A stretch of 64,000 nt of DNA from Naegleria gruberi (lineage: Eukaryota), in NCBI GenBank assembly GCA_000004985.1, contig GG738873.1. The stretch is one strand, 5' to 3'. This document shows, piece by piece, positions 5,984-64,000 of this stretch. A program made the translations under genes and the position numbers. Below the pieces are notes generated by a model. That model ran no database searches. It was given only the letters and a program-made list of their open reading frames with translations, and was not told the origin of the DNA. Within the stretch, counting starts at the first letter, position 1, and each line of letters opens with the position of its first letter.

Positions 5984-6141
5984 TTTGTTGTGAAGGAAGC
6001 AAAGTTTGCAAACAACAGCTTGATTTACGCCGTAAATAAACTGTAGAGATACAGTAAACCTGTACAGCCACAGTAAAAGGGGTAACACCAGAGTGATTTA
6101 TTACATACAGAAAGAAAATACATCAAGCGTGTTCCGGTAGA

Positions 6142-45126: not shown

Positions 45127-45441
45127 TATTATTTCTCCAAATAAAACAATAAAGAATTTCGTTGATAAACCAATGGGTAGAAGCTCACTCAACATATTCT
45201 TCATCCAAAGGATGAGGTATGTTGCTCGGAAATGCTGCCTTTTAGGTCATTGACTTTATTCAGCAATGATTTTGCTTGGTGTGTTTACCATGTTTCTTAA
45301 TTTTTTTGAGCATAAAAATTATTTATCAACTCAATTTTATTGTTTACAATTTGTCGAAATACTAACGTTGCATCGTTCCTCGCAACTAGCCATATTTCTC
45401 CAAATAAAACAATAAAGAATTTCGTTGATAAACCAATGGGT
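45127..45441. repeat. Split direct-repeat block: B1 (45127-45177), A2 (45255-45385) and B2 (45391-45441).
   Basis: atatttctccaaataaaacaataaagaatttcgttgataaaccaatgggt occurs twice, at 45127-45177 and 45391-45441, flanking the A-repeat copy. This gives the order A1 ... B1 A2 B2 known from Ngaro/PAT-like DIRS elements. Confidence 0.5.
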
Positions 45442-45644
45442 TAGTCCAGAGAAAATAGAGTGTTAGTGAAATTCTTGCCAGCTAGGCCTTCAGATCTAAG
45501 GTAAGGAAATAAACTTTTTTCCTTTTTATGTCTTGCACCGACCATTAGATCAGTTGTAGACATACCCTTTCTGAGTCCTTCTGTGATAGCACCTATTCTA
45601 AGGCTGTGACCTGAGACTGTTACGCCTTGATCTACTATACCCAC
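45441..45644 (-). pseudogene. Tyrosine-recombinase C-terminal fragment (Crypton/DIRS-type YR), degraded.
   Basis: SGHSLRIGAITEGLRKGMSTTDLMVGARHKKEKSLFPYL contains the YR HxxR box (GHSLRIGAIT) and a degenerate GRW...Y tyrosine box. Only 67 codons are open and there is no N-terminal domain. It lies directly beside B2. Confidence 0.6.

Positions 45645-45782: not shown

Positions 45783-45812
<30 letters not shown>
45783..45812. repeat. (AT)15 microsatellite.
   Basis: A perfect AT dinucleotide run. Confidence 0.9.
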
Positions 45813-45815
<3 letters not shown>

Positions 45816-46311
45816 AATAGATGTTAGATATTAGTTGTTCCATTTATTTTTAAACCTATCACTCCATCAACCTCCATGAATCTAGTTGTCTATTTCTTGT
45901 TGTAAGAGTTTTTCTTTGTTTTAATAAACAACTATCACAACTCTAATTTTACTACTTCTAATAGCAGTGTTTTTGTAATATTTTTACAAAGTTTGTTCTT
46001 TCTTTGAATTCATTTTCTTTGGATTTACCATAAAGATTATTACTTCCAATCAATAATCTTCATAATGATAATACCAACTTTAGAAGATTTTTAAAAATTA
46101 ATGGTTTTTTATATTTTATATATTACTTTGTTAAGCTTTTCTAAATTTCAAATCGATAAATTTTTGAAAATTTATTTTAGCTTCTTAATTTTCAATTAAT
46201 TTCATTATCTTTATATCTAAATCACTTTTAAATGCTTTTTCAGATAAACCAATTAAACCACCATCTTATAAACCAACTTGCAACAAAAATTTTTTCGGAT
46301 GTATATATATA

Positions 46312-46327
46312 TATATATATATATATA
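46312..46327. repeat. (TA)8 microsatellite.
   Basis: A perfect TA dinucleotide run. Confidence 0.9.
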
Positions 46328-46366
46328 AATGCATGCGAAAATTTTTATTTTATTTATATTAAATAT

Positions 46367-47288
46367 CTAATATGACAAACATATCCCACCAACGCATGTA
46401 TGAAAATTCGTATTTTTNNNNNNNNNNNNNNNNNNNNNNNNNNNNNNNNNNNNNNNNNNNNNNNNNNTATTATATGTGAAATTACCAATTGTAATATTAT
46501 TGCTTGTAAAGTTACTAATTGTAAAGTTACTAATTGTAATGTTATCACTCGTAAGGTTACGGATTGTTAAATTAGTATATGTGAAATTACCAATTGTAAT
46601 GTTATCACTTGTAAAGTTACTATTTGTAAAGTTACCAATTGTAATATTATCACTCGTAAGGTTAGTGTTTGTAAAGTTACTGCTTGTTGAATTAGTATAT
46701 GTGTAATTACCAATTGTAATATTATCACTTGTAAAGTTACTATTTGTAAAGTTACTGATCGTTAAATTAGTATATGTGTAATTACCACTTGTGGTATTCT
46801 CATATGTAAAATTATAATAGGTAAAATTGTTGAGTGTCAAATTCGGTATTTCCGTAATTCTCATCACCTCGTTTTCTGGATAATTTGCATCATTTTGGCA
46901 ATTTTGTCCCGTAATAGAATTTCTAAAACATTTACAAAAATCAGGCTTGGTACAATTACCATTTCCACTGCAAACAAGTGGATCTTCTGATTTAACACCA
47001 AAACAAATTGGTAAAGAACAATTTGATCCATAATATCCTTCTCTGCAAGTGGTTACATTTAAGAGACCTGTTGCATTCTTCTTGGAGCAAAGATACAAAT
47101 TATCACCTGTTGGGTTTGTACAATCAATTTCAAGATCAAGAGTTCCATTAATCTTTGTATTATTACATTTACCTTCAGGATTGGTACATGTCGCCATACT
47201 AACATTTGTTTGACACTGTGTGCCAATAAAACCAACTTTGCAAGAACATTGATTTGGTTTCTCACAATAACCATTTCCTGAACAAACC
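46367..47288 (-). CDS. Second paralog of the giant EGF-like/LamG extracellular protein, C-terminal part only. Its 5' end is in the N gap.
   Basis: The ORF ends at the stop at 46367. It contains EGF motifs (REGYYGSNCSLPICFGVKSEDPLVCSGNGNCTKPDFCKC). Positions 46958-47060 match window positions 1-103. The C-terminal approximately 130 aa are N-x-T pentapeptide repeats. The sequence continues open to the gap at 47289. Confidence 0.75.
46468..46860. repeat. 15-nt tandem repeat of at least 23 units with an approximately 90-nt higher-order period. It encodes N-[F/I/L]-T-x-x pentapeptide glycosylation-sequon repeats on the minus strand and is interrupted by the 50-N gap at 46418-46467.
   Basis: Units include tgtaaagttactaat, tgtaatgttatcact and cgtaaggttacggat. 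The translation reads ...NFTSDNITIGNFTNSNFTSDNITIGNFTYTNLT.... Confidence 0.8.
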
Positions 47289-50200
47289 NNNNNNNNNNNN
47301 NNNNNNNNNNNNNNNNNNNNNNNNNNNNNNNNNNNNNNNNNNNNNNNNNNNNNNNNNNNNNNNNNNNNNNNNNNNNNNNNNNNNNNNNNNNNNNNNNNNN
47401 NNNNNNNNNNNNNNNNNNNNNNNNNNNNNNNNNNNNNNNNNNNNNNNNNNNNNNNNNNNNNNNNNNNNNNNNNNNNNNNNNNNNNNNNNNNNNNNNNNNN
47501 NNNNNNNNNNNNNNNNNNNNNNNNNNNNNNNNNNNNNNNNNNNNNNNNNNNNNNNNNNNNNNNNNNNNNNNNNNNNNNNNNNNNNNNNNNNNNNNNNNNN
47601 NNNNNNNNNNNNNNNNNNNNNNNNNNNNNNNNNNNNNNNNNNNNNNNNNNNNNNNNNNNNNNNNNNNNNNNNNNNNNNNNNNNNNNNNNNNNNNNNNNNN
47701 NNNNNNNNNNNNNNNNNNNNNNNNNNNNNNNNNNNNNNNNNNNNNNNNNNNNNNNNNNNNNNNNNNNNNNNNNNNNNNNNNNNNNNNNNNNNNNNNNNNN
47801 NNNNNNNNNNNNNNNNNNNNNNNNNNNNNNNNNNNNNNNNNNNNNNNNNNNNNNNNNNNNNNNNNNNNNNNNNNNNNNNNNNNNNNNNNNNNNNNNNNNN
47901 NNNNNNNNNNNNNNNNNNNNNNNNNNNNNNNNNNNNNNNNNNNNNNNNNNNNNNNNNNNNNNNNNNNNNNNNNNNNNNNNNNNNNNNNNNNNNNNNNNNN
48001 NNNNNNNNNNNNNNNNNNNNNNNNNNNNNNNNNNNNNNNNNNNNNNNNNNNNNNNNNNNNNNNNNNNNNNNNNNNNNNNNNNNNNNNNNNNNNNNNNNNN
48101 NNNNNNNNNNNNNNNNNNNNNNNNNNNNNNNNNNNNNNNNNNNNNNNNNNNNNNNNNNNNNNNNNNNNNNNNNNNNNNNNNNNNNNNNNNNNNNNNNNNN
48201 NNNNNNNNNNNNNNNNNNNNNNNNNNNNNNNNNNNNNNNNNNNNNNNNNNNNNNNNNNNNNNNNNNNNNNNNNNNNNNNNNNNNNNNNNNNNNNNNNNNN
48301 NNNNNNNNNNNNNNNNNNNNNNNNNNNNNNNNNNNNNNNNNNNNNNNNNNNNNNNNNNNNNNNNNNNNNNNNNNNNNNNNNNNNNNNNNNNNNNNNNNNN
48401 NNNNNNNNNNNNNNNNNNNNNNNNNNNNNNNNNNNNNNNNNNNNNNNNNNNNNNNNNNNNNNNNNNNNNNNNNNNNNNNNNNNNNNNNNNNNNNNNNNNN
48501 NNNNNNNNNNNNNNNNNNNNNNNNNNNNNNNNNNNNNNNNNNNNNNNNNNNNNNNNNNNNNNNNNNNNNNNNNNNNNNNNNNNNNNNNNNNNNNNNNNNN
48601 NNNNNNNNNNNNNNNNNNNNNNNNNNNNNNNNNNNNNNNNNNNNNNNNNNNNNNNNNNNNNNNNNNNNNNNNNNNNNNNNNNNNNNNNNNNNNNNNNNNN
48701 NNNNNNNNNNNNNNNNNNNNNNNNNNNNNNNNNNNNNNNNNNNNNNNNNNNNNNNNNNNNNNNNNNNNNNNNNNNNNNNNNNNNNNNNNNNNNNNNNNNN
48801 NNNNNNNNNNNNNNNNNNNNNNNNNNNNNNNNNNNNNNNNNNNNNNNNNNNNNNNNNNNNNNNNNNNNNNNNNNNNNNNNNNNNNNNNNNNNNNNNNNNN
48901 NNNNNNNNNNNNNNNNNNNNNNNNNNNNNNNNNNNNNNNNNNNNNNNNNNNNNNNNNNNNNNNNNNNNNNNNNNNNNNNNNNNNNNNNNNNNNNNNNNNN
49001 NNNNNNNNNNNNNNNNNNNNNNNNNNNNNNNNNNNNNNNNNNNNNNNNNNNNNNNNNNNNNNNNNNNNNNNNNNNNNNNNNNNNNNNNNNNNNNNNNNNN
49101 NNNNNNNNNNNNNNNNNNNNNNNNNNNNNNNNNNNNNNNNNNNNNNNNNNNNNNNNNNNNNNNNNNNNNNNNNNNNNNNNNNNNNNNNNNNNNNNNNNNN
49201 NNNNNNNNNNNNNNNNNNNNNNNNNNNNNNNNNNNNNNNNNNNNNNNNNNNNNNNNNNNNNNNNNNNNNNNNNNNNNNNNNNNNNNNNNNNNNNNNNNNN
49301 NNNNNNNNNNNNNNNNNNNNNNNNNNNNNNNNNNNNNNNNNNNNNNNNNNNNNNNNNNNNNNNNNNNNNNNNNNNNNNNNNNNNNNNNNNNNNNNNNNNN
49401 NNNNNNNNNNNNNNNNNNNNNNNNNNNNNNNNNNNNNNNNNNNNNNNNNNNNNNNNNNNNNNNNNNNNNNNNNNNNNNNNNNNNNNNNNNNNNNNNNNNN
49501 NNNNNNNNNNNNNNNNNNNNNNNNNNNNNNNNNNNNNNNNNNNNNNNNNNNNNNNNNNNNNNNNNNNNNNNNNNNNNNNNNNNNNNNNNNNNNNNNNNNN
49601 NNNNNNNNNNNNNNNNNNNNNNNNNNNNNNNNNNNNNNNNNNNNNNNNNNNNNNNNNNNNNNNNNNNNNNNNNNNNNNNNNNNNNNNNNNNNNNNNNNNN
49701 NNNNNNNNNNNNNNNNNNNNNNNNNNNNNNNNNNNNNNNNNNNNNNNNNNNNNNNNNNNNNNNNNNNNNNNNNNNNNNNNNNNNNNNNNNNNNNNNNNNN
49801 NNNNNNNNNNNNNNNNNNNNNNNNNNNNNNNNNNNNNNNNNNNNNNNNNNNNNNNNNNNNNNNNNNNNNNNNNNNNNNNNNNNNNNNNNNNNNNNNNNNN
49901 NNNNNNNNNNNNNNNNNNNNNNNNNNNNNNNNNNNNNNNNNNNNNNNNNNNNNNNNNNNNNNNNNNNNNNNNNNNNNNNNNNNNNNNNNNNNNNNNNNNN
50001 NNNNNNNNNNNNNNNNNNNNNNNNNNNNNNNNNNNNNNNNNNNNNNNNNNNNNNNNNNNNNNNNNNNNNNNNNNNNNNNNNNNNNNNNNNNNNNNNNNNN
50101 NNNNNNNNNNNNNNNNNNNNNNNNNNNNNNNNNNNNNNNNNNNNNNNNNNNNNNNNNNNNNNNNNNNNNNNNNNNNNNNNNNNNNNNNNNNNNNNNNNNN

Positions 50201-53200
50201 NNNNNNNNNNNNNNNNNNNNNNNNNNNNNNNNNNNNNNNNNNNNNNNNNNNNNNNNNNNNNNNNNNNNNNNNNNNNNNNNNNNNNNNNNNNNNNNNNNNN
50301 NNNNNNNNNNNNNNNNNNNNNNNNNNNNNNNNNNNNNNNNNNNNNNNNNNNNNNNNNNNNNNNNNNNNNNNNNNNNNNNNNNNNNNNNNNNNNNNNNNNN
50401 NNNNNNNNNNNNNNNNNNNNNNNNNNNNNNNNNNNNNNNNNNNNNNNNNNNNNNNNNNNNNNNNNNNNNNNNNNNNNNNNNNNNNNNNNNNNNNNNNNNN
50501 NNNNNNNNNNNNNNNNNNNNNNNNNNNNNNNNNNNNNNNNNNNNNNNNNNNNNNNNNNNNNNNNNNNNNNNNNNNNNNNNNNNNNNNNNNNNNNNNNNNN
50601 NNNNNNNNNNNNNNNNNNNNNNNNNNNNNNNNNNNNNNNNNNNNNNNNNNNNNNNNNNNNNNNNNNNNNNNNNNNNNNNNNNNNNNNNNNNNNNNNNNNN
50701 NNNNNNNNNNNNNNNNNNNNNNNNNNNNNNNNNNNNNNNNNNNNNNNNNNNNNNNNNNNNNNNNNNNNNNNNNNNNNNNNNNNNNNNNNNNNNNNNNNNN
50801 NNNNNNNNNNNNNNNNNNNNNNNNNNNNNNNNNNNNNNNNNNNNNNNNNNNNNNNNNNNNNNNNNNNNNNNNNNNNNNNNNNNNNNNNNNNNNNNNNNNN
50901 NNNNNNNNNNNNNNNNNNNNNNNNNNNNNNNNNNNNNNNNNNNNNNNNNNNNNNNNNNNNNNNNNNNNNNNNNNNNNNNNNNNNNNNNNNNNNNNNNNNN
51001 NNNNNNNNNNNNNNNNNNNNNNNNNNNNNNNNNNNNNNNNNNNNNNNNNNNNNNNNNNNNNNNNNNNNNNNNNNNNNNNNNNNNNNNNNNNNNNNNNNNN
51101 NNNNNNNNNNNNNNNNNNNNNNNNNNNNNNNNNNNNNNNNNNNNNNNNNNNNNNNNNNNNNNNNNNNNNNNNNNNNNNNNNNNNNNNNNNNNNNNNNNNN
51201 NNNNNNNNNNNNNNNNNNNNNNNNNNNNNNNNNNNNNNNNNNNNNNNNNNNNNNNNNNNNNNNNNNNNNNNNNNNNNNNNNNNNNNNNNNNNNNNNNNNN
51301 NNNNNNNNNNNNNNNNNNNNNNNNNNNNNNNNNNNNNNNNNNNNNNNNNNNNNNNNNNNNNNNNNNNNNNNNNNNNNNNNNNNNNNNNNNNNNNNNNNNN
51401 NNNNNNNNNNNNNNNNNNNNNNNNNNNNNNNNNNNNNNNNNNNNNNNNNNNNNNNNNNNNNNNNNNNNNNNNNNNNNNNNNNNNNNNNNNNNNNNNNNNN
51501 NNNNNNNNNNNNNNNNNNNNNNNNNNNNNNNNNNNNNNNNNNNNNNNNNNNNNNNNNNNNNNNNNNNNNNNNNNNNNNNNNNNNNNNNNNNNNNNNNNNN
51601 NNNNNNNNNNNNNNNNNNNNNNNNNNNNNNNNNNNNNNNNNNNNNNNNNNNNNNNNNNNNNNNNNNNNNNNNNNNNNNNNNNNNNNNNNNNNNNNNNNNN
51701 NNNNNNNNNNNNNNNNNNNNNNNNNNNNNNNNNNNNNNNNNNNNNNNNNNNNNNNNNNNNNNNNNNNNNNNNNNNNNNNNNNNNNNNNNNNNNNNNNNNN
51801 NNNNNNNNNNNNNNNNNNNNNNNNNNNNNNNNNNNNNNNNNNNNNNNNNNNNNNNNNNNNNNNNNNNNNNNNNNNNNNNNNNNNNNNNNNNNNNNNNNNN
51901 NNNNNNNNNNNNNNNNNNNNNNNNNNNNNNNNNNNNNNNNNNNNNNNNNNNNNNNNNNNNNNNNNNNNNNNNNNNNNNNNNNNNNNNNNNNNNNNNNNNN
52001 NNNNNNNNNNNNNNNNNNNNNNNNNNNNNNNNNNNNNNNNNNNNNNNNNNNNNNNNNNNNNNNNNNNNNNNNNNNNNNNNNNNNNNNNNNNNNNNNNNNN
52101 NNNNNNNNNNNNNNNNNNNNNNNNNNNNNNNNNNNNNNNNNNNNNNNNNNNNNNNNNNNNNNNNNNNNNNNNNNNNNNNNNNNNNNNNNNNNNNNNNNNN
52201 NNNNNNNNNNNNNNNNNNNNNNNNNNNNNNNNNNNNNNNNNNNNNNNNNNNNNNNNNNNNNNNNNNNNNNNNNNNNNNNNNNNNNNNNNNNNNNNNNNNN
52301 NNNNNNNNNNNNNNNNNNNNNNNNNNNNNNNNNNNNNNNNNNNNNNNNNNNNNNNNNNNNNNNNNNNNNNNNNNNNNNNNNNNNNNNNNNNNNNNNNNNN
52401 NNNNNNNNNNNNNNNNNNNNNNNNNNNNNNNNNNNNNNNNNNNNNNNNNNNNNNNNNNNNNNNNNNNNNNNNNNNNNNNNNNNNNNNNNNNNNNNNNNNN
52501 NNNNNNNNNNNNNNNNNNNNNNNNNNNNNNNNNNNNNNNNNNNNNNNNNNNNNNNNNNNNNNNNNNNNNNNNNNNNNNNNNNNNNNNNNNNNNNNNNNNN
52601 NNNNNNNNNNNNNNNNNNNNNNNNNNNNNNNNNNNNNNNNNNNNNNNNNNNNNNNNNNNNNNNNNNNNNNNNNNNNNNNNNNNNNNNNNNNNNNNNNNNN
52701 NNNNNNNNNNNNNNNNNNNNNNNNNNNNNNNNNNNNNNNNNNNNNNNNNNNNNNNNNNNNNNNNNNNNNNNNNNNNNNNNNNNNNNNNNNNNNNNNNNNN
52801 NNNNNNNNNNNNNNNNNNNNNNNNNNNNNNNNNNNNNNNNNNNNNNNNNNNNNNNNNNNNNNNNNNNNNNNNNNNNNNNNNNNNNNNNNNNNNNNNNNNN
52901 NNNNNNNNNNNNNNNNNNNNNNNNNNNNNNNNNNNNNNNNNNNNNNNNNNNNNNNNNNNNNNNNNNNNNNNNNNNNNNNNNNNNNNNNNNNNNNNNNNNN
53001 NNNNNNNNNNNNNNNNNNNNNNNNNNNNNNNNNNNNNNNNNNNNNNNNNNNNNNNNNNNNNNNNNNNNNNNNNNNNNNNNNNNNNNNNNNNNNNNNNNNN
53101 NNNNNNNNNNNNNNNNNNNNNNNNNNNNNNNNNNNNNNNNNNNNNNNNNNNNNNNNNNNNNNNNNNNNNNNNNNNNNNNNNNNNNNNNNNNNNNNNNNNN

Positions 53201-56200
53201 NNNNNNNNNNNNNNNNNNNNNNNNNNNNNNNNNNNNNNNNNNNNNNNNNNNNNNNNNNNNNNNNNNNNNNNNNNNNNNNNNNNNNNNNNNNNNNNNNNNN
53301 NNNNNNNNNNNNNNNNNNNNNNNNNNNNNNNNNNNNNNNNNNNNNNNNNNNNNNNNNNNNNNNNNNNNNNNNNNNNNNNNNNNNNNNNNNNNNNNNNNNN
53401 NNNNNNNNNNNNNNNNNNNNNNNNNNNNNNNNNNNNNNNNNNNNNNNNNNNNNNNNNNNNNNNNNNNNNNNNNNNNNNNNNNNNNNNNNNNNNNNNNNNN
53501 NNNNNNNNNNNNNNNNNNNNNNNNNNNNNNNNNNNNNNNNNNNNNNNNNNNNNNNNNNNNNNNNNNNNNNNNNNNNNNNNNNNNNNNNNNNNNNNNNNNN
53601 NNNNNNNNNNNNNNNNNNNNNNNNNNNNNNNNNNNNNNNNNNNNNNNNNNNNNNNNNNNNNNNNNNNNNNNNNNNNNNNNNNNNNNNNNNNNNNNNNNNN
53701 NNNNNNNNNNNNNNNNNNNNNNNNNNNNNNNNNNNNNNNNNNNNNNNNNNNNNNNNNNNNNNNNNNNNNNNNNNNNNNNNNNNNNNNNNNNNNNNNNNNN
53801 NNNNNNNNNNNNNNNNNNNNNNNNNNNNNNNNNNNNNNNNNNNNNNNNNNNNNNNNNNNNNNNNNNNNNNNNNNNNNNNNNNNNNNNNNNNNNNNNNNNN
53901 NNNNNNNNNNNNNNNNNNNNNNNNNNNNNNNNNNNNNNNNNNNNNNNNNNNNNNNNNNNNNNNNNNNNNNNNNNNNNNNNNNNNNNNNNNNNNNNNNNNN
54001 NNNNNNNNNNNNNNNNNNNNNNNNNNNNNNNNNNNNNNNNNNNNNNNNNNNNNNNNNNNNNNNNNNNNNNNNNNNNNNNNNNNNNNNNNNNNNNNNNNNN
54101 NNNNNNNNNNNNNNNNNNNNNNNNNNNNNNNNNNNNNNNNNNNNNNNNNNNNNNNNNNNNNNNNNNNNNNNNNNNNNNNNNNNNNNNNNNNNNNNNNNNN
54201 NNNNNNNNNNNNNNNNNNNNNNNNNNNNNNNNNNNNNNNNNNNNNNNNNNNNNNNNNNNNNNNNNNNNNNNNNNNNNNNNNNNNNNNNNNNNNNNNNNNN
54301 NNNNNNNNNNNNNNNNNNNNNNNNNNNNNNNNNNNNNNNNNNNNNNNNNNNNNNNNNNNNNNNNNNNNNNNNNNNNNNNNNNNNNNNNNNNNNNNNNNNN
54401 NNNNNNNNNNNNNNNNNNNNNNNNNNNNNNNNNNNNNNNNNNNNNNNNNNNNNNNNNNNNNNNNNNNNNNNNNNNNNNNNNNNNNNNNNNNNNNNNNNNN
54501 NNNNNNNNNNNNNNNNNNNNNNNNNNNNNNNNNNNNNNNNNNNNNNNNNNNNNNNNNNNNNNNNNNNNNNNNNNNNNNNNNNNNNNNNNNNNNNNNNNNN
54601 NNNNNNNNNNNNNNNNNNNNNNNNNNNNNNNNNNNNNNNNNNNNNNNNNNNNNNNNNNNNNNNNNNNNNNNNNNNNNNNNNNNNNNNNNNNNNNNNNNNN
54701 NNNNNNNNNNNNNNNNNNNNNNNNNNNNNNNNNNNNNNNNNNNNNNNNNNNNNNNNNNNNNNNNNNNNNNNNNNNNNNNNNNNNNNNNNNNNNNNNNNNN
54801 NNNNNNNNNNNNNNNNNNNNNNNNNNNNNNNNNNNNNNNNNNNNNNNNNNNNNNNNNNNNNNNNNNNNNNNNNNNNNNNNNNNNNNNNNNNNNNNNNNNN
54901 NNNNNNNNNNNNNNNNNNNNNNNNNNNNNNNNNNNNNNNNNNNNNNNNNNNNNNNNNNNNNNNNNNNNNNNNNNNNNNNNNNNNNNNNNNNNNNNNNNNN
55001 NNNNNNNNNNNNNNNNNNNNNNNNNNNNNNNNNNNNNNNNNNNNNNNNNNNNNNNNNNNNNNNNNNNNNNNNNNNNNNNNNNNNNNNNNNNNNNNNNNNN
55101 NNNNNNNNNNNNNNNNNNNNNNNNNNNNNNNNNNNNNNNNNNNNNNNNNNNNNNNNNNNNNNNNNNNNNNNNNNNNNNNNNNNNNNNNNNNNNNNNNNNN
55201 NNNNNNNNNNNNNNNNNNNNNNNNNNNNNNNNNNNNNNNNNNNNNNNNNNNNNNNNNNNNNNNNNNNNNNNNNNNNNNNNNNNNNNNNNNNNNNNNNNNN
55301 NNNNNNNNNNNNNNNNNNNNNNNNNNNNNNNNNNNNNNNNNNNNNNNNNNNNNNNNNNNNNNNNNNNNNNNNNNNNNNNNNNNNNNNNNNNNNNNNNNNN
55401 NNNNNNNNNNNNNNNNNNNNNNNNNNNNNNNNNNNNNNNNNNNNNNNNNNNNNNNNNNNNNNNNNNNNNNNNNNNNNNNNNNNNNNNNNNNNNNNNNNNN
55501 NNNNNNNNNNNNNNNNNNNNNNNNNNNNNNNNNNNNNNNNNNNNNNNNNNNNNNNNNNNNNNNNNNNNNNNNNNNNNNNNNNNNNNNNNNNNNNNNNNNN
55601 NNNNNNNNNNNNNNNNNNNNNNNNNNNNNNNNNNNNNNNNNNNNNNNNNNNNNNNNNNNNNNNNNNNNNNNNNNNNNNNNNNNNNNNNNNNNNNNNNNNN
55701 NNNNNNNNNNNNNNNNNNNNNNNNNNNNNNNNNNNNNNNNNNNNNNNNNNNNNNNNNNNNNNNNNNNNNNNNNNNNNNNNNNNNNNNNNNNNNNNNNNNN
55801 NNNNNNNNNNNNNNNNNNNNNNNNNNNNNNNNNNNNNNNNNNNNNNNNNNNNNNNNNNNNNNNNNNNNNNNNNNNNNNNNNNNNNNNNNNNNNNNNNNNN
55901 NNNNNNNNNNNNNNNNNNNNNNNNNNNNNNNNNNNNNNNNNNNNNNNNNNNNNNNNNNNNNNNNNNNNNNNNNNNNNNNNNNNNNNNNNNNNNNNNNNNN
56001 NNNNNNNNNNNNNNNNNNNNNNNNNNNNNNNNNNNNNNNNNNNNNNNNNNNNNNNNNNNNNNNNNNNNNNNNNNNNNNNNNNNNNNNNNNNNNNNNNNNN
56101 NNNNNNNNNNNNNNNNNNNNNNNNNNNNNNNNNNNNNNNNNNNNNNNNNNNNNNNNNNNNNNNNNNNNNNNNNNNNNNNNNNNNNNNNNNNNNNNNNNNN

Positions 56201-59200
56201 NNNNNNNNNNNNNNNNNNNNNNNNNNNNNNNNNNNNNNNNNNNNNNNNNNNNNNNNNNNNNNNNNNNNNNNNNNNNNNNNNNNNNNNNNNNNNNNNNNNN
56301 NNNNNNNNNNNNNNNNNNNNNNNNNNNNNNNNNNNNNNNNNNNNNNNNNNNNNNNNNNNNNNNNNNNNNNNNNNNNNNNNNNNNNNNNNNNNNNNNNNNN
56401 NNNNNNNNNNNNNNNNNNNNNNNNNNNNNNNNNNNNNNNNNNNNNNNNNNNNNNNNNNNNNNNNNNNNNNNNNNNNNNNNNNNNNNNNNNNNNNNNNNNN
56501 NNNNNNNNNNNNNNNNNNNNNNNNNNNNNNNNNNNNNNNNNNNNNNNNNNNNNNNNNNNNNNNNNNNNNNNNNNNNNNNNNNNNNNNNNNNNNNNNNNNN
56601 NNNNNNNNNNNNNNNNNNNNNNNNNNNNNNNNNNNNNNNNNNNNNNNNNNNNNNNNNNNNNNNNNNNNNNNNNNNNNNNNNNNNNNNNNNNNNNNNNNNN
56701 NNNNNNNNNNNNNNNNNNNNNNNNNNNNNNNNNNNNNNNNNNNNNNNNNNNNNNNNNNNNNNNNNNNNNNNNNNNNNNNNNNNNNNNNNNNNNNNNNNNN
56801 NNNNNNNNNNNNNNNNNNNNNNNNNNNNNNNNNNNNNNNNNNNNNNNNNNNNNNNNNNNNNNNNNNNNNNNNNNNNNNNNNNNNNNNNNNNNNNNNNNNN
56901 NNNNNNNNNNNNNNNNNNNNNNNNNNNNNNNNNNNNNNNNNNNNNNNNNNNNNNNNNNNNNNNNNNNNNNNNNNNNNNNNNNNNNNNNNNNNNNNNNNNN
57001 NNNNNNNNNNNNNNNNNNNNNNNNNNNNNNNNNNNNNNNNNNNNNNNNNNNNNNNNNNNNNNNNNNNNNNNNNNNNNNNNNNNNNNNNNNNNNNNNNNNN
57101 NNNNNNNNNNNNNNNNNNNNNNNNNNNNNNNNNNNNNNNNNNNNNNNNNNNNNNNNNNNNNNNNNNNNNNNNNNNNNNNNNNNNNNNNNNNNNNNNNNNN
57201 NNNNNNNNNNNNNNNNNNNNNNNNNNNNNNNNNNNNNNNNNNNNNNNNNNNNNNNNNNNNNNNNNNNNNNNNNNNNNNNNNNNNNNNNNNNNNNNNNNNN
57301 NNNNNNNNNNNNNNNNNNNNNNNNNNNNNNNNNNNNNNNNNNNNNNNNNNNNNNNNNNNNNNNNNNNNNNNNNNNNNNNNNNNNNNNNNNNNNNNNNNNN
57401 NNNNNNNNNNNNNNNNNNNNNNNNNNNNNNNNNNNNNNNNNNNNNNNNNNNNNNNNNNNNNNNNNNNNNNNNNNNNNNNNNNNNNNNNNNNNNNNNNNNN
57501 NNNNNNNNNNNNNNNNNNNNNNNNNNNNNNNNNNNNNNNNNNNNNNNNNNNNNNNNNNNNNNNNNNNNNNNNNNNNNNNNNNNNNNNNNNNNNNNNNNNN
57601 NNNNNNNNNNNNNNNNNNNNNNNNNNNNNNNNNNNNNNNNNNNNNNNNNNNNNNNNNNNNNNNNNNNNNNNNNNNNNNNNNNNNNNNNNNNNNNNNNNNN
57701 NNNNNNNNNNNNNNNNNNNNNNNNNNNNNNNNNNNNNNNNNNNNNNNNNNNNNNNNNNNNNNNNNNNNNNNNNNNNNNNNNNNNNNNNNNNNNNNNNNNN
57801 NNNNNNNNNNNNNNNNNNNNNNNNNNNNNNNNNNNNNNNNNNNNNNNNNNNNNNNNNNNNNNNNNNNNNNNNNNNNNNNNNNNNNNNNNNNNNNNNNNNN
57901 NNNNNNNNNNNNNNNNNNNNNNNNNNNNNNNNNNNNNNNNNNNNNNNNNNNNNNNNNNNNNNNNNNNNNNNNNNNNNNNNNNNNNNNNNNNNNNNNNNNN
58001 NNNNNNNNNNNNNNNNNNNNNNNNNNNNNNNNNNNNNNNNNNNNNNNNNNNNNNNNNNNNNNNNNNNNNNNNNNNNNNNNNNNNNNNNNNNNNNNNNNNN
58101 NNNNNNNNNNNNNNNNNNNNNNNNNNNNNNNNNNNNNNNNNNNNNNNNNNNNNNNNNNNNNNNNNNNNNNNNNNNNNNNNNNNNNNNNNNNNNNNNNNNN
58201 NNNNNNNNNNNNNNNNNNNNNNNNNNNNNNNNNNNNNNNNNNNNNNNNNNNNNNNNNNNNNNNNNNNNNNNNNNNNNNNNNNNNNNNNNNNNNNNNNNNN
58301 NNNNNNNNNNNNNNNNNNNNNNNNNNNNNNNNNNNNNNNNNNNNNNNNNNNNNNNNNNNNNNNNNNNNNNNNNNNNNNNNNNNNNNNNNNNNNNNNNNNN
58401 NNNNNNNNNNNNNNNNNNNNNNNNNNNNNNNNNNNNNNNNNNNNNNNNNNNNNNNNNNNNNNNNNNNNNNNNNNNNNNNNNNNNNNNNNNNNNNNNNNNN
58501 NNNNNNNNNNNNNNNNNNNNNNNNNNNNNNNNNNNNNNNNNNNNNNNNNNNNNNNNNNNNNNNNNNNNNNNNNNNNNNNNNNNNNNNNNNNNNNNNNNNN
58601 NNNNNNNNNNNNNNNNNNNNNNNNNNNNNNNNNNNNNNNNNNNNNNNNNNNNNNNNNNNNNNNNNNNNNNNNNNNNNNNNNNNNNNNNNNNNNNNNNNNN
58701 NNNNNNNNNNNNNNNNNNNNNNNNNNNNNNNNNNNNNNNNNNNNNNNNNNNNNNNNNNNNNNNNNNNNNNNNNNNNNNNNNNNNNNNNNNNNNNNNNNNN
58801 NNNNNNNNNNNNNNNNNNNNNNNNNNNNNNNNNNNNNNNNNNNNNNNNNNNNNNNNNNNNNNNNNNNNNNNNNNNNNNNNNNNNNNNNNNNNNNNNNNNN
58901 NNNNNNNNNNNNNNNNNNNNNNNNNNNNNNNNNNNNNNNNNNNNNNNNNNNNNNNNNNNNNNNNNNNNNNNNNNNNNNNNNNNNNNNNNNNNNNNNNNNN
59001 NNNNNNNNNNNNNNNNNNNNNNNNNNNNNNNNNNNNNNNNNNNNNNNNNNNNNNNNNNNNNNNNNNNNNNNNNNNNNNNNNNNNNNNNNNNNNNNNNNNN
59101 NNNNNNNNNNNNNNNNNNNNNNNNNNNNNNNNNNNNNNNNNNNNNNNNNNNNNNNNNNNNNNNNNNNNNNNNNNNNNNNNNNNNNNNNNNNNNNNNNNNN

Positions 59201-62200
59201 NNNNNNNNNNNNNNNNNNNNNNNNNNNNNNNNNNNNNNNNNNNNNNNNNNNNNNNNNNNNNNNNNNNNNNNNNNNNNNNNNNNNNNNNNNNNNNNNNNNN
59301 NNNNNNNNNNNNNNNNNNNNNNNNNNNNNNNNNNNNNNNNNNNNNNNNNNNNNNNNNNNNNNNNNNNNNNNNNNNNNNNNNNNNNNNNNNNNNNNNNNNN
59401 NNNNNNNNNNNNNNNNNNNNNNNNNNNNNNNNNNNNNNNNNNNNNNNNNNNNNNNNNNNNNNNNNNNNNNNNNNNNNNNNNNNNNNNNNNNNNNNNNNNN
59501 NNNNNNNNNNNNNNNNNNNNNNNNNNNNNNNNNNNNNNNNNNNNNNNNNNNNNNNNNNNNNNNNNNNNNNNNNNNNNNNNNNNNNNNNNNNNNNNNNNNN
59601 NNNNNNNNNNNNNNNNNNNNNNNNNNNNNNNNNNNNNNNNNNNNNNNNNNNNNNNNNNNNNNNNNNNNNNNNNNNNNNNNNNNNNNNNNNNNNNNNNNNN
59701 NNNNNNNNNNNNNNNNNNNNNNNNNNNNNNNNNNNNNNNNNNNNNNNNNNNNNNNNNNNNNNNNNNNNNNNNNNNNNNNNNNNNNNNNNNNNNNNNNNNN
59801 NNNNNNNNNNNNNNNNNNNNNNNNNNNNNNNNNNNNNNNNNNNNNNNNNNNNNNNNNNNNNNNNNNNNNNNNNNNNNNNNNNNNNNNNNNNNNNNNNNNN
59901 NNNNNNNNNNNNNNNNNNNNNNNNNNNNNNNNNNNNNNNNNNNNNNNNNNNNNNNNNNNNNNNNNNNNNNNNNNNNNNNNNNNNNNNNNNNNNNNNNNNN
60001 NNNNNNNNNNNNNNNNNNNNNNNNNNNNNNNNNNNNNNNNNNNNNNNNNNNNNNNNNNNNNNNNNNNNNNNNNNNNNNNNNNNNNNNNNNNNNNNNNNNN
60101 NNNNNNNNNNNNNNNNNNNNNNNNNNNNNNNNNNNNNNNNNNNNNNNNNNNNNNNNNNNNNNNNNNNNNNNNNNNNNNNNNNNNNNNNNNNNNNNNNNNN
60201 NNNNNNNNNNNNNNNNNNNNNNNNNNNNNNNNNNNNNNNNNNNNNNNNNNNNNNNNNNNNNNNNNNNNNNNNNNNNNNNNNNNNNNNNNNNNNNNNNNNN
60301 NNNNNNNNNNNNNNNNNNNNNNNNNNNNNNNNNNNNNNNNNNNNNNNNNNNNNNNNNNNNNNNNNNNNNNNNNNNNNNNNNNNNNNNNNNNNNNNNNNNN
60401 NNNNNNNNNNNNNNNNNNNNNNNNNNNNNNNNNNNNNNNNNNNNNNNNNNNNNNNNNNNNNNNNNNNNNNNNNNNNNNNNNNNNNNNNNNNNNNNNNNNN
60501 NNNNNNNNNNNNNNNNNNNNNNNNNNNNNNNNNNNNNNNNNNNNNNNNNNNNNNNNNNNNNNNNNNNNNNNNNNNNNNNNNNNNNNNNNNNNNNNNNNNN
60601 NNNNNNNNNNNNNNNNNNNNNNNNNNNNNNNNNNNNNNNNNNNNNNNNNNNNNNNNNNNNNNNNNNNNNNNNNNNNNNNNNNNNNNNNNNNNNNNNNNNN
60701 NNNNNNNNNNNNNNNNNNNNNNNNNNNNNNNNNNNNNNNNNNNNNNNNNNNNNNNNNNNNNNNNNNNNNNNNNNNNNNNNNNNNNNNNNNNNNNNNNNNN
60801 NNNNNNNNNNNNNNNNNNNNNNNNNNNNNNNNNNNNNNNNNNNNNNNNNNNNNNNNNNNNNNNNNNNNNNNNNNNNNNNNNNNNNNNNNNNNNNNNNNNN
60901 NNNNNNNNNNNNNNNNNNNNNNNNNNNNNNNNNNNNNNNNNNNNNNNNNNNNNNNNNNNNNNNNNNNNNNNNNNNNNNNNNNNNNNNNNNNNNNNNNNNN
61001 NNNNNNNNNNNNNNNNNNNNNNNNNNNNNNNNNNNNNNNNNNNNNNNNNNNNNNNNNNNNNNNNNNNNNNNNNNNNNNNNNNNNNNNNNNNNNNNNNNNN
61101 NNNNNNNNNNNNNNNNNNNNNNNNNNNNNNNNNNNNNNNNNNNNNNNNNNNNNNNNNNNNNNNNNNNNNNNNNNNNNNNNNNNNNNNNNNNNNNNNNNNN
61201 NNNNNNNNNNNNNNNNNNNNNNNNNNNNNNNNNNNNNNNNNNNNNNNNNNNNNNNNNNNNNNNNNNNNNNNNNNNNNNNNNNNNNNNNNNNNNNNNNNNN
61301 NNNNNNNNNNNNNNNNNNNNNNNNNNNNNNNNNNNNNNNNNNNNNNNNNNNNNNNNNNNNNNNNNNNNNNNNNNNNNNNNNNNNNNNNNNNNNNNNNNNN
61401 NNNNNNNNNNNNNNNNNNNNNNNNNNNNNNNNNNNNNNNNNNNNNNNNNNNNNNNNNNNNNNNNNNNNNNNNNNNNNNNNNNNNNNNNNNNNNNNNNNNN
61501 NNNNNNNNNNNNNNNNNNNNNNNNNNNNNNNNNNNNNNNNNNNNNNNNNNNNNNNNNNNNNNNNNNNNNNNNNNNNNNNNNNNNNNNNNNNNNNNNNNNN
61601 NNNNNNNNNNNNNNNNNNNNNNNNNNNNNNNNNNNNNNNNNNNNNNNNNNNNNNNNNNNNNNNNNNNNNNNNNNNNNNNNNNNNNNNNNNNNNNNNNNNN
61701 NNNNNNNNNNNNNNNNNNNNNNNNNNNNNNNNNNNNNNNNNNNNNNNNNNNNNNNNNNNNNNNNNNNNNNNNNNNNNNNNNNNNNNNNNNNNNNNNNNNN
61801 NNNNNNNNNNNNNNNNNNNNNNNNNNNNNNNNNNNNNNNNNNNNNNNNNNNNNNNNNNNNNNNNNNNNNNNNNNNNNNNNNNNNNNNNNNNNNNNNNNNN
61901 NNNNNNNNNNNNNNNNNNNNNNNNNNNNNNNNNNNNNNNNNNNNNNNNNNNNNNNNNNNNNNNNNNNNNNNNNNNNNNNNNNNNNNNNNNNNNNNNNNNN
62001 NNNNNNNNNNNNNNNNNNNNNNNNNNNNNNNNNNNNNNNNNNNNNNNNNNNNNNNNNNNNNNNNNNNNNNNNNNNNNNNNNNNNNNNNNNNNNNNNNNNN
62101 NNNNNNNNNNNNNNNNNNNNNNNNNNNNNNNNNNNNNNNNNNNNNNNNNNNNNNNNNNNNNNNNNNNNNNNNNNNNNNNNNNNNNNNNNNNNNNNNNNNN

Positions 62201-64000
62201 NNNNNNNNNNNNNNNNNNNNNNNNNNNNNNNNNNNNNNNNNNNNNNNNNNNNNNNNNNNNNNNNNNNNNNNNNNNNNNNNNNNNNNNNNNNNNNNNNNNN
62301 NNNNNNNNNNNNNNNNNNNNNNNNNNNNNNNNNNNNNNNNNNNNNNNNNNNNNNNNNNNNNNNNNNNNNNNNNNNNNNNNNNNNNNNNNNNNNNNNNNNN
62401 NNNNNNNNNNNNNNNNNNNNNNNNNNNNNNNNNNNNNNNNNNNNNNNNNNNNNNNNNNNNNNNNNNNNNNNNNNNNNNNNNNNNNNNNNNNNNNNNNNNN
62501 NNNNNNNNNNNNNNNNNNNNNNNNNNNNNNNNNNNNNNNNNNNNNNNNNNNNNNNNNNNNNNNNNNNNNNNNNNNNNNNNNNNNNNNNNNNNNNNNNNNN
62601 NNNNNNNNNNNNNNNNNNNNNNNNNNNNNNNNNNNNNNNNNNNNNNNNNNNNNNNNNNNNNNNNNNNNNNNNNNNNNNNNNNNNNNNNNNNNNNNNNNNN
62701 NNNNNNNNNNNNNNNNNNNNNNNNNNNNNNNNNNNNNNNNNNNNNNNNNNNNNNNNNNNNNNNNNNNNNNNNNNNNNNNNNNNNNNNNNNNNNNNNNNNN
62801 NNNNNNNNNNNNNNNNNNNNNNNNNNNNNNNNNNNNNNNNNNNNNNNNNNNNNNNNNNNNNNNNNNNNNNNNNNNNNNNNNNNNNNNNNNNNNNNNNNNN
62901 NNNNNNNNNNNNNNNNNNNNNNNNNNNNNNNNNNNNNNNNNNNNNNNNNNNNNNNNNNNNNNNNNNNNNNNNNNNNNNNNNNNNNNNNNNNNNNNNNNNN
63001 NNNNNNNNNNNNNNNNNNNNNNNNNNNNNNNNNNNNNNNNNNNNNNNNNNNNNNNNNNNNNNNNNNNNNNNNNNNNNNNNNNNNNNNNNNNNNNNNNNNN
63101 NNNNNNNNNNNNNNNNNNNNNNNNNNNNNNNNNNNNNNNNNNNNNNNNNNNNNNNNNNNNNNNNNNNNNNNNNNNNNNNNNNNNNNNNNNNNNNNNNNNN
63201 NNNNNNNNNNNNNNNNNNNNNNNNNNNNNNNNNNNNNNNNNNNNNNNNNNNNNNNNNNNNNNNNNNNNNNNNNNNNNNNNNNNNNNNNNNNNNNNNNNNN
63301 NNNNNNNNNNNNNNNNNNNNNNNNNNNNNNNNNNNNNNNNNNNNNNNNNNNNNNNNNNNNNNNNNNNNNNNNNNNNNNNNNNNNNNNNNNNNNNNNNNNN
63401 NNNNNNNNNNNNNNNNNNNNNNNNNNNNNNNNNNNNNNNNNNNNNNNNNNNNNNNNNNNNNNNNNNNNNNNNNNNNNNNNNNNNNNNNNNNNNNNNNNNN
63501 NNNNNNNNNNNNNNNNNNNNNNNNNNNNNNNNNNNNNNNNNNNNNNNNNNNNNNNNNNNNNNNNNNNNNNNNNNNNNNNNNNNNNNNNNNNNNNNNNNNN
63601 NNNNNNNNNNNNNNNNNNNNNNNNNNNNNNNNNNNNNNNNNNNNNNNNNNNNNNNNNNNNNNNNNNNNNNNNNNNNNNNNNNNNNNNNNNNNNNNNNNNN
63701 NNNNNNNNNNNNNNNNNNNNNNNNNNNNNNNNNNNNNNNNNNNNNNNNNNNNNNNNNNNNNNNNNNNNNNNNNNNNNNNNNNNNNNNNNNNNNNNNNNNN
63801 NNNNNNNNNNNNNNNNNNNNNNNNNNNNNNNNNNNNNNNNNNNNNNNNNNNNNNNNNNNNNNNNNNNNNNNNNNNNNNNNNNNNNNNNNNNNNNNNNNNN
63901 NNNNNNNNNNNNNNNNNNNNNNNNNNNNNNNNNNNNNNNNNNNNNNNNNNNNNNNNNNNNNNNNNNNNNNNNNNNNNNNNNNNNNNNNNNNNNNNNNNNN
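47289..64000. other. Assembly gap (run of N).
   Basis: 16,712 consecutive N characters. Confidence 1.

What the first reader, a model, noticed from the sequence alone, without database searches (positions are those of the whole stretch)
46367..46860. Pentapeptide N-x-T sequon tandem array forming the C-terminal tail of the EGF-giant paralog, collapsed at a 50-N gap
At least 23 units of 15 nt encode ...SNFT/SDNIT/IGNFT/YTNLT... A dense array of N-glycosylation sequons is predicted, which could form a glycan brush or stalk, or possibly a beta-helix-like pentapeptide fold. The array has an approximately 90-nt higher-order period. It spans the 50-N gap at 46418-46467, so the true copy number is unknown and probably polymorphic. 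This is coding sequence, not a CRISPR or satellite.
Basis: seen in the sequence. Interest (0 to 1): 0.5.

Follow-up and report, generated by a model that had tools for sequence, protein, structure and literature searches.

The report
Naegleria giant protein's N-x-T repeat
The flagged repeat is real coding sequence (25 units of Asn-hydrophobic-Thr-x-x), but it comes from the middle, not the tail, of an already annotated 5,396-residue Naegleria gruberi surface protein, and the copy seen here is an orphan 821-base contig at a scaffold end, so it is only mildly interesting.

Summary
The 15-nt repeat is real. There are 25 in-frame units on the minus strand (46469-46843), each encoding N-[F/L/I/Y]-T-x-x, read straight on from teneurin-type EGF domains.

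The window is Naegleria gruberi NEG-M. The 273 residues encoded at 46469-47287 are 100% identical to residues 2176-2448 of predicted protein NAEGRDRAFT_58267 (EFC43502.1, 5,396 aa). That protein's first 1,002 residues are encoded at window 3008..3.

In that protein the array is internal. It has about 32 units (res 2324-2483) and sits between an EGF cluster and the next LamG-like module, about 2,900 residues before the C-terminal membrane anchor. "C-terminal tail", "spans the gap", "collapsed" and "90-nt period" are therefore not supported.

The flagged copy is an orphan 821-bp contig between a 50-N gap and a 16.7-kb N run. I could not tell whether it is a misplaced or allelic contig or a true second copy.

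N and T are invariant in all 25 units despite synonymous codon variation, and position 2 is almost always hydrophobic. The unit partly matches the pentapeptide-repeat consensus, which itself contains a sequon, but it fails Pfam thresholds and the structure prediction is weak.

Most likely role: a beta-rich, N-glycosylated spacer. This is inferred, not shown.

The parts
46469..46843 (-). 25 tandem 15-nt units encoding N-[F11 L5 I5 Y2 T1 S1]-T-[I/S/Y/N/L]-[S/G/T/D/N..]. These equal residues 2324-2448 of N. gruberi NAEGRDRAFT_58267.
   Evidence: repeat, frame, codons. (100% identity to P0006 residues 2176-2448). (25 NxT, no Pro or Lys, 31% bulky hydrophobic residues).
46844..46897 (-). 18-residue linker QNDANYPENEVMRITEIP between the last EGF cysteine and the first repeat unit.
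46898..47287 (-). Teneurin/tenascin-type EGF cluster (17 Cys in 130 residues), cut off by the N run at 47289. Equals P0006 residues 2176-2305.
   Evidence: PF23106 EGF_Teneurin 25.5 bits, cutoff 24.3; EGF_TEN E 1.4e-9..
46418..46467 (.). 50-N assembly gap. The contig ends inside the array, one base into unit 26.
   Evidence: Base 46468 (T on the + strand, A on the - strand) fits the next codon AAY (Asn) of P0006.
46200..46417 (.). AT-rich non-coding DNA with (TA)13 to the left of the gap. It is not a continuation of the ORF.
   Evidence: stops in all three minus-strand frames within 22 codons. (no repeat unit).
47289..64000 (.). 16,712 N: either window padding at the scaffold end or a very large gap. 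Either way the 821-bp piece 46468-47288 is an island.
3..6122 (-). 5' part of the same giant gene: one open frame of 2,040 codons running off the left window edge. The first ATG is at 5981 and is followed by a hydrophobic, signal-like segment. The annotated Met of NAEGRDRAFT_58267 is at 3008. The frame holds Laminin_G_3 plus EGF modules. By arithmetic, the genuine array locus should lie about 4 kb left of window position 1.
   Evidence: P0006 residues 1-1002 = 3008..3, 100%. (open frame, ATG, hydrophobic segment). (PF13385 46 and 31.8 bits)..

Best explanation
SHOWN. The array is an in-frame coding minisatellite inside the ectodomain of a giant Naegleria gruberi protein, NAEGRDRAFT_58267 / EFC43502.1 / D2VHZ3. 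The annotated protein is 5,396 aa. It is probably about 6,390 aa with the unannotated 5' extension. The protein is built of about 10 repeats of [Laminin_G_3-like module + 3-4 teneurin-type EGFs], then a long EGF run, a membrane-spanning segment (read by eye) and a short cytoplasmic tail. About 32 units of N-hydrophobic-T-x-x (res 2324-2483) are inserted at one of four closely paralogous EGF-to-LamG junctions. That stretches a linker of about 60 residues to about 215. The copy in the finding is an 821-bp, Sanger-read-sized island contig. Its translation is identical to residues 2176-2448. It sits about 51 kb away on the wrong side of the gene, with no continuation across the 50-N gap.

INFERRED. 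(a) The island is most likely a misplaced or allelic duplicate contig rather than a separate paralog. (b) The protein enters the ER, and N. gruberi has a near-complete N-glycosylation pathway, so most of the 32 closely spaced N-x-T sites are expected to be glycosylated. (c) The array has no proline, 31% bulky hydrophobic residues and an alternating polar/hydrophobic pattern, so it more likely forms a beta-rich, solenoid-type rod than a disordered mucin-like tether. It would then act as a glycan-covered spacer between two ectodomain modules.
For: IDENTITY. phmmer of the array finds P0006 at E 1.4e-64. P0006 is N. gruberi EFC43502.1 on a 461,873-bp scaffold. tblastn gives residues 1-1002 = window 3008..3 and residues 2176-2448 = 47287..46469, both 100% with no gaps.

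INTERNAL POSITION AND UNIT COUNT.. Module map. Laminin_G_3 and EGF Pfam hits. Of four paralogous junctions sharing SLPICFGVKSEDPLVC..., only one carries the array.

SELECTION. N is 25/25 with AAT 14 / AAC 11. T is 25/25 with ACA 21 / ACG 3 / ACC 1 and never Ser. Position 2 is hydrophobic or aromatic in 23/25 units through 7 different codons. Positions 4 and 5 vary freely.

SECRETORY CONTEXT. Signal-like hydrophobic segment after the first ATG. Membrane-spanning segment plus basic stop-transfer sequence, seen by inspection. 171 sequons in the whole protein. N. gruberi scored present for nearly all N-glycosylation pathway proteins (PMC4973528).

ORPHAN STATUS.. NEG-M is a Sanger assembly with 35% GC (PMC9928731).
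Against: - No DNA of the annotated array locus was available. I cannot say whether the island is identical at synonymous sites, so artefact, allele and true duplicate are not separated.
- Glycosylation is not measured.
- Pfam pentapeptide models are below threshold (17.5 vs 38 bits; PF00805 silent).
- Thirty-two N-glycans at 5-residue spacing may be sterically incompatible with a compact solenoid, and co-translational glycosylation could keep the chain extended.
- The array occurs in only one module and no ortholog with it was found, so a tolerated, weakly functional expansion remains possible.
- The signal peptide and membrane-spanning segment were judged by eye and hydropathy, not by a dedicated predictor.
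Confidence: 0.6

Rival explanations
1. The array is a genuine pentapeptide-repeat (Rfr-type) right-handed quadrilateral beta-helix domain. It would have four units per coil and about 8 coils, with hydrophobic position 2 stacked in the core. It would serve as a rigid binding or spacer module. The sequons would be a by-product of the [S/T/A]-[D/N]-[L/F]-[S/T]-x consensus.
For: There are at least 8 contiguous pentapeptides. N at i-1, L/F/I/Y at i and T at i+1 match the published consensus (PMC8145042). phmmer links the array to bona fide PF00805 proteins and to solved designed PRP solenoids, in register. The link depends on the order within the unit. SV2 shows that a luminal, glycosylated PRP helix exists in eukaryotes.
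Confidence: 0.2
2. The array is an intrinsically extended, heavily N-glycosylated 'bottle-brush' tether. It would be the N-glycan analogue of a mucin stalk, and the peptide would not fold.
For: Sequon density is the maximum possible, one per 5 residues. All sites are the efficient N-x-T form and never N-x-S, although ACA to TCA is a single-base change. Uncharacterised eukaryotic secreted proteins carry similar NxT 5-mer arrays. One is a yeast PRY3-like cell-wall protein, where the array lies in a Ser/Thr-rich stalk. Others are a sponge CCP protein and a fish NRF/acyltransferase-like protein.
Against: Composition is unlike known disordered stalks: no Pro, 31% F/I/L/Y, only 5% charged. Conservation of a hydrophobic middle residue is not needed for glycosylation. 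AF2 puts it in beta structure, though with low confidence.
Confidence: 0.25
3. The copy in the window is a real second copy, partial or complete, of the giant gene. The rest of that copy would be unassembled or collapsed onto the first copy, inside the N run and/or the 50-N gap. It would not be a misplaced or allelic contig.
For: The island has the same strand orientation as the gene. Both of its ends fall inside intragenic repeats, which is where assemblies break. If the 16.7-kb N run to its right is a real gap, it could hold the 5' 9.5 kb of a second copy. A tyrosine-recombinase mobile element lies just to the left and could have truncated a copy.
Against: Translation is 273/273 identical across a fast-evolving repeat. 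To the left of the gap there is AT-rich non-coding DNA instead of the 8.8 kb of remaining ORF. The piece is the size of a single Sanger read.
Confidence: 0.3
4. The array is a selectively neutral, lineage-specific replication-slippage expansion of a short NIT/NLT-containing linker, tolerated but without a role.
For: It is present at only one of four near-identical junctions. The paralogous linker reads ...LLQNITNLQNELKQNLTS..., which could have seeded it. No ortholog or second array was found.
Against: Units are only about 66% identical in DNA, yet N and T have no non-synonymous change in 25 units while their third codon positions vary. That pattern points to purifying selection rather than recent neutral expansion.
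Confidence: 0.1

Closest known systems
Pentapeptide repeat proteins (Pfam PF00805/PF13599; Rfr fold; e.g. MfpA, Qnr, Np275/276, and the designed 'beta1' solenoids 4YC5/5DRA)
   Same: A strict 5-residue period with at least 8 contiguous units. Asn is at i-1, Leu/Phe-type at i and Thr at i+1. The match to solved PRPs is in register, with phmmer E 5e-7. Most database neighbours are PRPs.
   Different: There is no Ala or small-residue preference at i-2. Position i+2 is often Ile or Tyr. The array falls below Pfam thresholds. It is extracellular in a eukaryote, so every unit is a usable N-glycosylation site. The fold is not verified.
SV2A/B/C luminal domain (glycosylated pentapeptide-repeat beta-helix; BoNT/A receptor)
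   Same: It is a eukaryotic, lumen- or outside-facing pentapeptide-type repeat that carries N-glycans (PMC8145042).
   Different: SV2 has about 4.5-5 coils and a few glycans. From memory, its Phe-centred units place the sequon Asn at the turn position. Here every unit has the Asn next to the central hydrophobic residue. No sequence match to SV2 was returned.
Tandem-repeat glycosylated stalks of surface or cell-wall proteins (e.g. the yeast PRY3-like protein P0151 with SNIT[H/Y] x ~25; mucin-type stalks)
   Same: An in-frame minisatellite in an ectodomain, saturated with glycosylation sites, plausibly acting as a spacer. P0151 has the same N-I-T core.
   Different: Classical stalks are Ser/Thr/Pro-rich, O-glycosylated and disordered. 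This array has no Pro and 31% bulky hydrophobic residues.
Three-sided right-handed beta-solenoids (DUF2807/DUF4097 'putative adhesins' such as 3LYC and 3PET; bactofilin)
   Different: The model is low-confidence (pLDDT 53). There is no sequence relationship, and those proteins lack a 5-residue period.
Giant LamG + EGF adhesion-type ectodomain proteins (teneurin/tenascin-type EGF, Laminin_G_3)
   Same: The host protein's architecture: PF13385, PF23106 and PF25024 hits.
   Different: It is a protist protein with about 10 LamG/EGF modules and no other recognisable domains. I know of no such family member with a pentapeptide sequon array.

Membership tests
Pentapeptide repeat protein family (PRP, PF00805 clan) | [quoted passage not shown] | tested here: met
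   25 uninterrupted units in the window. 26 units, then a 2-residue insert, then 5-6 more in P0006.
Pentapeptide repeat protein family (PRP, PF00805 clan) | Consensus [S,T,A,V][D,N][L,F][S,T,R][G], or the 2019 extended sets, at all five positions | tested here: inconclusive
   i-1 is N in 25/25. i is L/F in 16/25, plus I/Y in 7. i+1 is T in 25/25. But i-2 falls in the allowed set in only 10/25 and i+2 in only 3/25 (against the consensus quoted).
Pentapeptide repeat protein family (PRP, PF00805 clan) | Score above the curated Pfam gathering threshold | tested here: not met
   PF13599 scores 14.7-17.5 bits against a cutoff of 38. PF00805 is not reported even at E<=1. Control PRPs score 150-670 bits.
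Pentapeptide repeat protein family (PRP, PF00805 clan) | [quoted passage not shown] | tested here: inconclusive
N-glycosylated sequon array (glycoprotein stalk or spacer) | N-x-S/T with x not Pro, at high density | tested here: met
   25/25 units are N-x-T in the window. There are 32 sequons in 160 residues of P0006, against 139 in the other 5,236 residues.
N-glycosylated sequon array (glycoprotein stalk or spacer) | The segment is translocated into the ER lumen (signal peptide, ectodomain topology) | tested here: inconclusive
   A hydrophobic segment lies 34-52 aa after the first ATG. Disulfide-type EGF domains flank the array. A C-terminal hydrophobic span followed by RRKK is seen by eye. 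No dedicated signal-peptide or membrane-segment predictor was available.
N-glycosylated sequon array (glycoprotein stalk or spacer) | The organism has the oligosaccharyltransferase/ALG pathway | not testable with these tools
   Literature only: N. gruberi is scored present for nearly all pathway components in PMC4973528.
N-glycosylated sequon array (glycoprotein stalk or spacer) | Sites actually occupied by glycans | not testable with these tools
   Needs glycoproteomics or a PNGase F shift.
Teneurin/tenascin-type EGF domain (host protein) | Pfam hit above the gathering threshold, six-Cys pattern | tested here: met
   PF23106 scores 25.5 bits (cutoff 24.3) on the window fragment and 81.9 bits on the 1,200-aa P0006 segment.
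N. gruberi NAEGRDRAFT_58267 (is the fragment this gene?) | Sequence identity to the annotated product | tested here: met
   273/273 residues are identical and ungapped. The gene's first 1,002 residues are encoded elsewhere in the same window. DNA-level identity could not be tested.

The most novel reading that the evidence does not exclude
The array is a folded 'glyco-solenoid': a eukaryotic extracellular pentapeptide-type beta-solenoid in which the outward-facing Asn and Thr of every unit form a sequon, so a rigid protein rod carries a regular ladder of N-glycans. The same solution would then have arisen independently in surface proteins of Naegleria, sponges, fish and yeasts (the NxT 5-mer arrays seen). 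That would define an unrecognised class of glycan-presenting spacer derived from, or convergent with, the pentapeptide-repeat fold.
Probability: 0.12. Interest if true: 0.6.

Novelty: new variant of a known kind. Interest (0 to 1): 0.25.

Why it matters
It matters modestly.

1. The result corrects the reading of this locus. The repeat is an internal spacer of an annotated giant Naegleria surface protein, and the flagged copy is an assembly island, so it should not be counted as a separate paralog or as a C-terminal tail.

2. It illustrates a general point. The pentapeptide-repeat consensus x-[D/N]-[L/F]-[S/T]-x contains an N-glycosylation sequon. When such a repeat sits in a secreted eukaryotic protein with Asn fixed, every unit is a potential glycan site. 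Similar uncharacterised arrays exist in unrelated eukaryotes. If one were shown to be both folded and fully glycosylated, it would be a new type of glycan-presenting rod.

3. The annotated gene model appears to lack about 991 N-terminal residues, including the probable signal peptide.

Tried and rejected
- CRISPR, satellite or non-coding repeat: rejected. The minus-strand frame is open, continuous with EGF domains and identical to an annotated protein. The 76-aa plus-strand ORF 46476-46706 is an antisense by-product.
- Bacterial-type gene calls: not applicable, since the window is eukaryotic (N. gruberi).
- The search for homologous proteins, three searches (whole fragment, array alone, post-array module). 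These returned only three metagenomic EGF proteins or nothing. They never returned P0006, although it is in that collection. As a result no admissible homologues were available to build an alignment for AF2.
- The look-up of encoding contigs for a window protein and for P0006: not on record, so no DNA of the true array locus could be fetched.
- Two metagenome DNA scans, one exact junction 29-mer and one degenerate NFTSDNITIGNFT pattern: no hits.
- Literature searches for Naegleria + pentapeptide repeat, sequon tandem pentapeptide repeats, and PRP + N-glycosylation: nothing specific.
- A second copy of the array in the window (tblastn, blastn, 15-mer with 3 mismatches): none.
- A 90-nt higher-order repeat: rejected by autocorrelation.
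- An alternative pentapeptide register with position 4 as the core residue: rejected by inspection. Position 4 is L in only 1 of 25 units and is S/N in 10.

Full report
WHAT IS IN THE SEQUENCE

Real sequence occupies only window positions 1-47288. Positions 47289-64000 are N, and a 50-N gap lies at 46418-46467. Between the two N runs sits an 821-bp island, 46468-47288.

Tandem Repeats Finder reports a 15-nt period with 18.3 copies and score 161 at 46482-46756. It also reports overlapping higher-order rows of 45, 60, 75, 105 and 120 nt. DNA self-identity is 0.66 at lag 15, against 0.21-0.38 at lags that are not multiples of 15.

The repeat is coding on the minus strand. The frame window:46468-47287:- is open for 273 codons. 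It reads as follows:
- 130 residues of Cys-rich EGF sequence (PF23106 EGF_Teneurin 25.5 bits, above the cutoff; EGF_TEN E 1.4e-9).
- An 18-residue linker.
- 25 consecutive pentapeptides at 46469-46843.

The core observation therefore stands: at least 23 units, N-x-T in each, in frame with EGF. Three details do not hold.
- There is no 90-nt period. Lag 90 gives 0.649, while lags 75, 105 and 120 give 0.733, 0.737 and 0.706. Four unit types occur: D = N[FY]TYT, A = NFT[NI][ST], B = N[FL]TS[DN] and C = NITI[GS]. They run DAABC DAABC ABC DABC ABC D.
- The array does not span the gap. The 51 bases to the left contain no unit. All three minus-strand frames there hit stops within 22 codons, in AT-rich DNA with a (TA)13 run.

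WHOSE GENE IT IS

A full phmmer scan with the array gave 1,016 hits at E<=1e-3. One of them, P0006 (E 1.4e-64), contains the whole fragment.

P0006 is Naegleria gruberi predicted protein NAEGRDRAFT_58267 (EFC43502.1, XP_002676246.1, UniProt D2VHZ3). It is 5,396 aa long and lies on a 461,873-bp scaffold. The window's 35% GC agrees with the NEG-M Sanger assembly (PMC9928731).

tblastn of P0006 against the window gives two perfect, ungapped matches:
- Residues 1-1002 at 3008..3, minus strand.
- Residues 2176-2448 at 47287..46469, minus strand.

So the 'EGF giant' at the left edge of the window and the flagged fragment are the same annotated gene, not two paralogs. The gene runs off the left edge. 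By arithmetic, its own array should lie about 4 kb to the left of window position 1.

WHERE THE ARRAY SITS IN THE PROTEIN

In P0006 the units occupy residues 2324-2483. There are 26 in register, then a two-residue insert (RG), then five more sequon units and a degenerate one. That gives 32 of the protein's 171 sequons.

The array is followed by a module homologous to the Laminin_G_3 modules (28% identity, E 1.5e-15). After that come further LamG/EGF modules and a long EGF run. By inspection, a hydrophobic span with an RRKK stop-transfer sequence and a ~75-residue tail then follow.

The array is therefore internal, about 2,900 residues from the C-terminus. Only about 7 units lie beyond the point where the island contig ends. 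Nothing suggests collapse.

Four junctions in the protein share the near-identical motif SLPICFGVKSEDPLVC[NS]GNGNC.KPD.C.C. Three of them continue with a ~25-residue linker, for example LLQNITNLQNELKQNLTS. Only the fourth carries the array.

THE ISLAND CONTIG

The piece is the length of one Sanger read. It is flanked by N on both sides, and its ORF does not continue to the left. It lies about 51 kb from where the annotated gene places these residues, upstream of the gene's start. No other copy exists in the window.

I could not obtain the DNA of the annotated locus. I therefore cannot tell apart a misplaced contig, an allelic contig and a genuine second copy whose remainder is unassembled. I favour misplaced or allelic, at about 0.6, because translation is 273/273 identical across a repeat whose units are only ~66% identical to one another.

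SELECTION ON THE UNIT

- Position 1 is Asn in 25/25 units, with AAT 14 and AAC 11.
- Position 3 is Thr in 25/25, with ACA 21, ACG 3 and ACC 1. It is never Ser, although ACA to TCA is one base change.
- Position 2 is F11/L5/I5/Y2 (plus T1, S1); the hydrophobic residues use seven different codons and position 2 as a whole uses nine.
- Position 4 is I8/S7/Y6/N3/L1.
- Position 5 is S6/G5/T4/D4/N3 and others.

Synonymous variation without amino-acid change at N and T, and conservative replacement at position 2, indicate purifying selection. Recency of expansion alone would not give this pattern.

RELATION TO PENTAPEPTIDE-REPEAT PROTEINS

About 110 of the top 150 phmmer hits have the consensus [N/D]-L-T-[G/R/E]-A. 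The 7 sampled hits of that consensus type score 150-670 bits on PF00805.

The best solved-structure matches are designed consensus pentapeptide beta-solenoids (5dra, 4yc5, 4yfo; E 5e-7 to 7e-5). They align N to N and hydrophobic to L.

A control shows the similarity depends on order within the unit. I permuted residues within the unit while keeping composition and the 5-residue period. The number of these hits scoring at least 40 bits fell from 145 of 148 to between 0 and 24. Full shuffling gave 0. The hit set was selected with the real query, so this shows dependence on register, not independent significance.

Against the published consensus (PMC8145042), i-1, i and i+1 fit. Position i-2 fits in only 10/25 units and i+2 in only 3/25. 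Pfam thresholds are not met: PF13599 scores 17.5 against 38 bits, and PF00805 is silent. I therefore do not file the array as a PRP. It resembles one, and the resemblance explains why each unit is a sequon, because N-[L/F]-[S/T] is part of the consensus.

STRUCTURE PREDICTION

AF2 had to be run without an alignment, since no admissible homologues were available. It gave pLDDT 34 for the 273-aa fragment. For the array alone it gave 53, with the other four models at 34-39.

The composition argues independently against a mucin-like disordered stalk: no Pro, no Lys, 31% F/I/L/Y and 5% charged residues.

LIKELY ROLE

The protein has the hallmarks of a type I surface protein. The evidence is:
- The minus-strand frame is open for 1,038 codons upstream of the annotated Met.
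- The first ATG is at 5981, followed by a strongly hydrophobic segment.
- Disulfide-type EGF domains run throughout.
- There is a C-terminal hydrophobic anchor, identified by eye.

N. gruberi is scored as having nearly the whole N-glycosylation pathway (PMC4973528). I therefore infer that the array is glycosylated at many of its 32 N-x-T sites. It would lengthen one inter-module linker from about 60 to about 215 residues, acting as a glycan-covered, probably beta-rich spacer.

The steps from 'sequons in an ectodomain' to 'glycosylated' and from 'beta-prone composition' to 'solenoid' are inferences. Rival readings are a canonical PRP helix, a disordered glycan brush and a neutral minisatellite. 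They are listed with the results that would decide between them.

COMPARABLE ARRAYS ELSEWHERE

The phmmer list also contains uncharacterised eukaryotic proteins with NxT 5-mer arrays:
- A fish NRF/acyltransferase-3 protein with NVTID x ~80.
- A Sycon CCP-domain protein with SNFTQ x ~45.
- A galactosyltransferase-domain protein with NATVD.
- A yeast PRY3-like CAP cell-wall protein with SNIT[H/Y] x ~25.

I found no literature on this class.

VERDICT

The repeat is real and coding. The gene is already annotated, though uncharacterised. The 'C-terminal tail / paralog / collapsed at gap / 90-nt period' reading is not supported. As a kind of object it is a variant of known things: a pentapeptide-type repeat and a glycosylated tandem-repeat spacer. 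Interest is low to moderate.

Noticed in passing
window 3-6125, minus strand: The giant gene's frame is open for 1,038 codons upstream of the annotated Met at 3008. That Met falls inside a Laminin_G_3 domain. The first in-frame ATG is at 5981 and is followed by a signal-like hydrophobic segment (ICAIRFVFIVFLFLIYCTC). The public model NAEGRDRAFT_58267 therefore looks 5'-truncated by about 991 aa, and the true protein would be about 6,390 aa.
   Followed up: partly
window 6658-8976(+), 9452-11086(-), 20653-23130(-), 24078-26750(-), 27589-29799(+), 30547-32751(+): A cluster of six paralogous ORFs that appear to share an RCC1-like propeller and Kelch repeats. Only 20653-23130 was scanned with Pfam. 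That ORF also ends in a weak EGF-like hit that is below threshold. The others were read from their translations. The nearest metagenomic EGF homologue (P0001) is also an RCC1+EGF+TM protein.
   Followed up: partly
window 38671-39942(+) and 45441-45644(-): Tyrosine-recombinase-like ORFs. The first has a Phage_int_SAM_5 hit of 30 bits. The second carries a GHSLRIGA...LFPYL motif, seen by eye only. They suggest Crypton/DIRS-like mobile element(s) immediately left of the orphan contig. ORFs 42072-42716(-) and 43827-44954(+) between them have no Pfam match.
   Followed up: no
window 47289-64000 and 46418-46467: 26% of the window is N. The 821-bp contig carrying the finding is an island between a 50-N gap and a 16.7-kb N run.
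   Followed up: yes
window 15340-18207(+), repeat at 17123-17241: A 955-aa coiled-coil-type ORF with a 12/24-nt coding repeat (EKIVEKVVEKEV...) and what looks, by eye only, like a leucine-rich C-terminus.
   Followed up: no
window 45783-45812 and 46302-46327: (AT)15 and (TA)13 microsatellites in AT-rich non-coding DNA left of the gap.
   Followed up: no
tools (versus 30): the search for homologous proteins never returned P0006, although listing of cluster members shows it is a representative in that collection. The exhaustive phmmer search found it at once. The word-index searches were effectively blind to this genome.
   Followed up: partly
P0006 residues 983, 1408, 1845, 2266 (window 1-104 versus 46955-47058): The segment CREGYYGSNCSLPICFGVKSEDPLVC is kept nearly identical in four modules that are otherwise 30-70% identical. 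Two copies are 93% identical in DNA over 104 nt. This suggests intragenic gene conversion or strong constraint.
   Followed up: no
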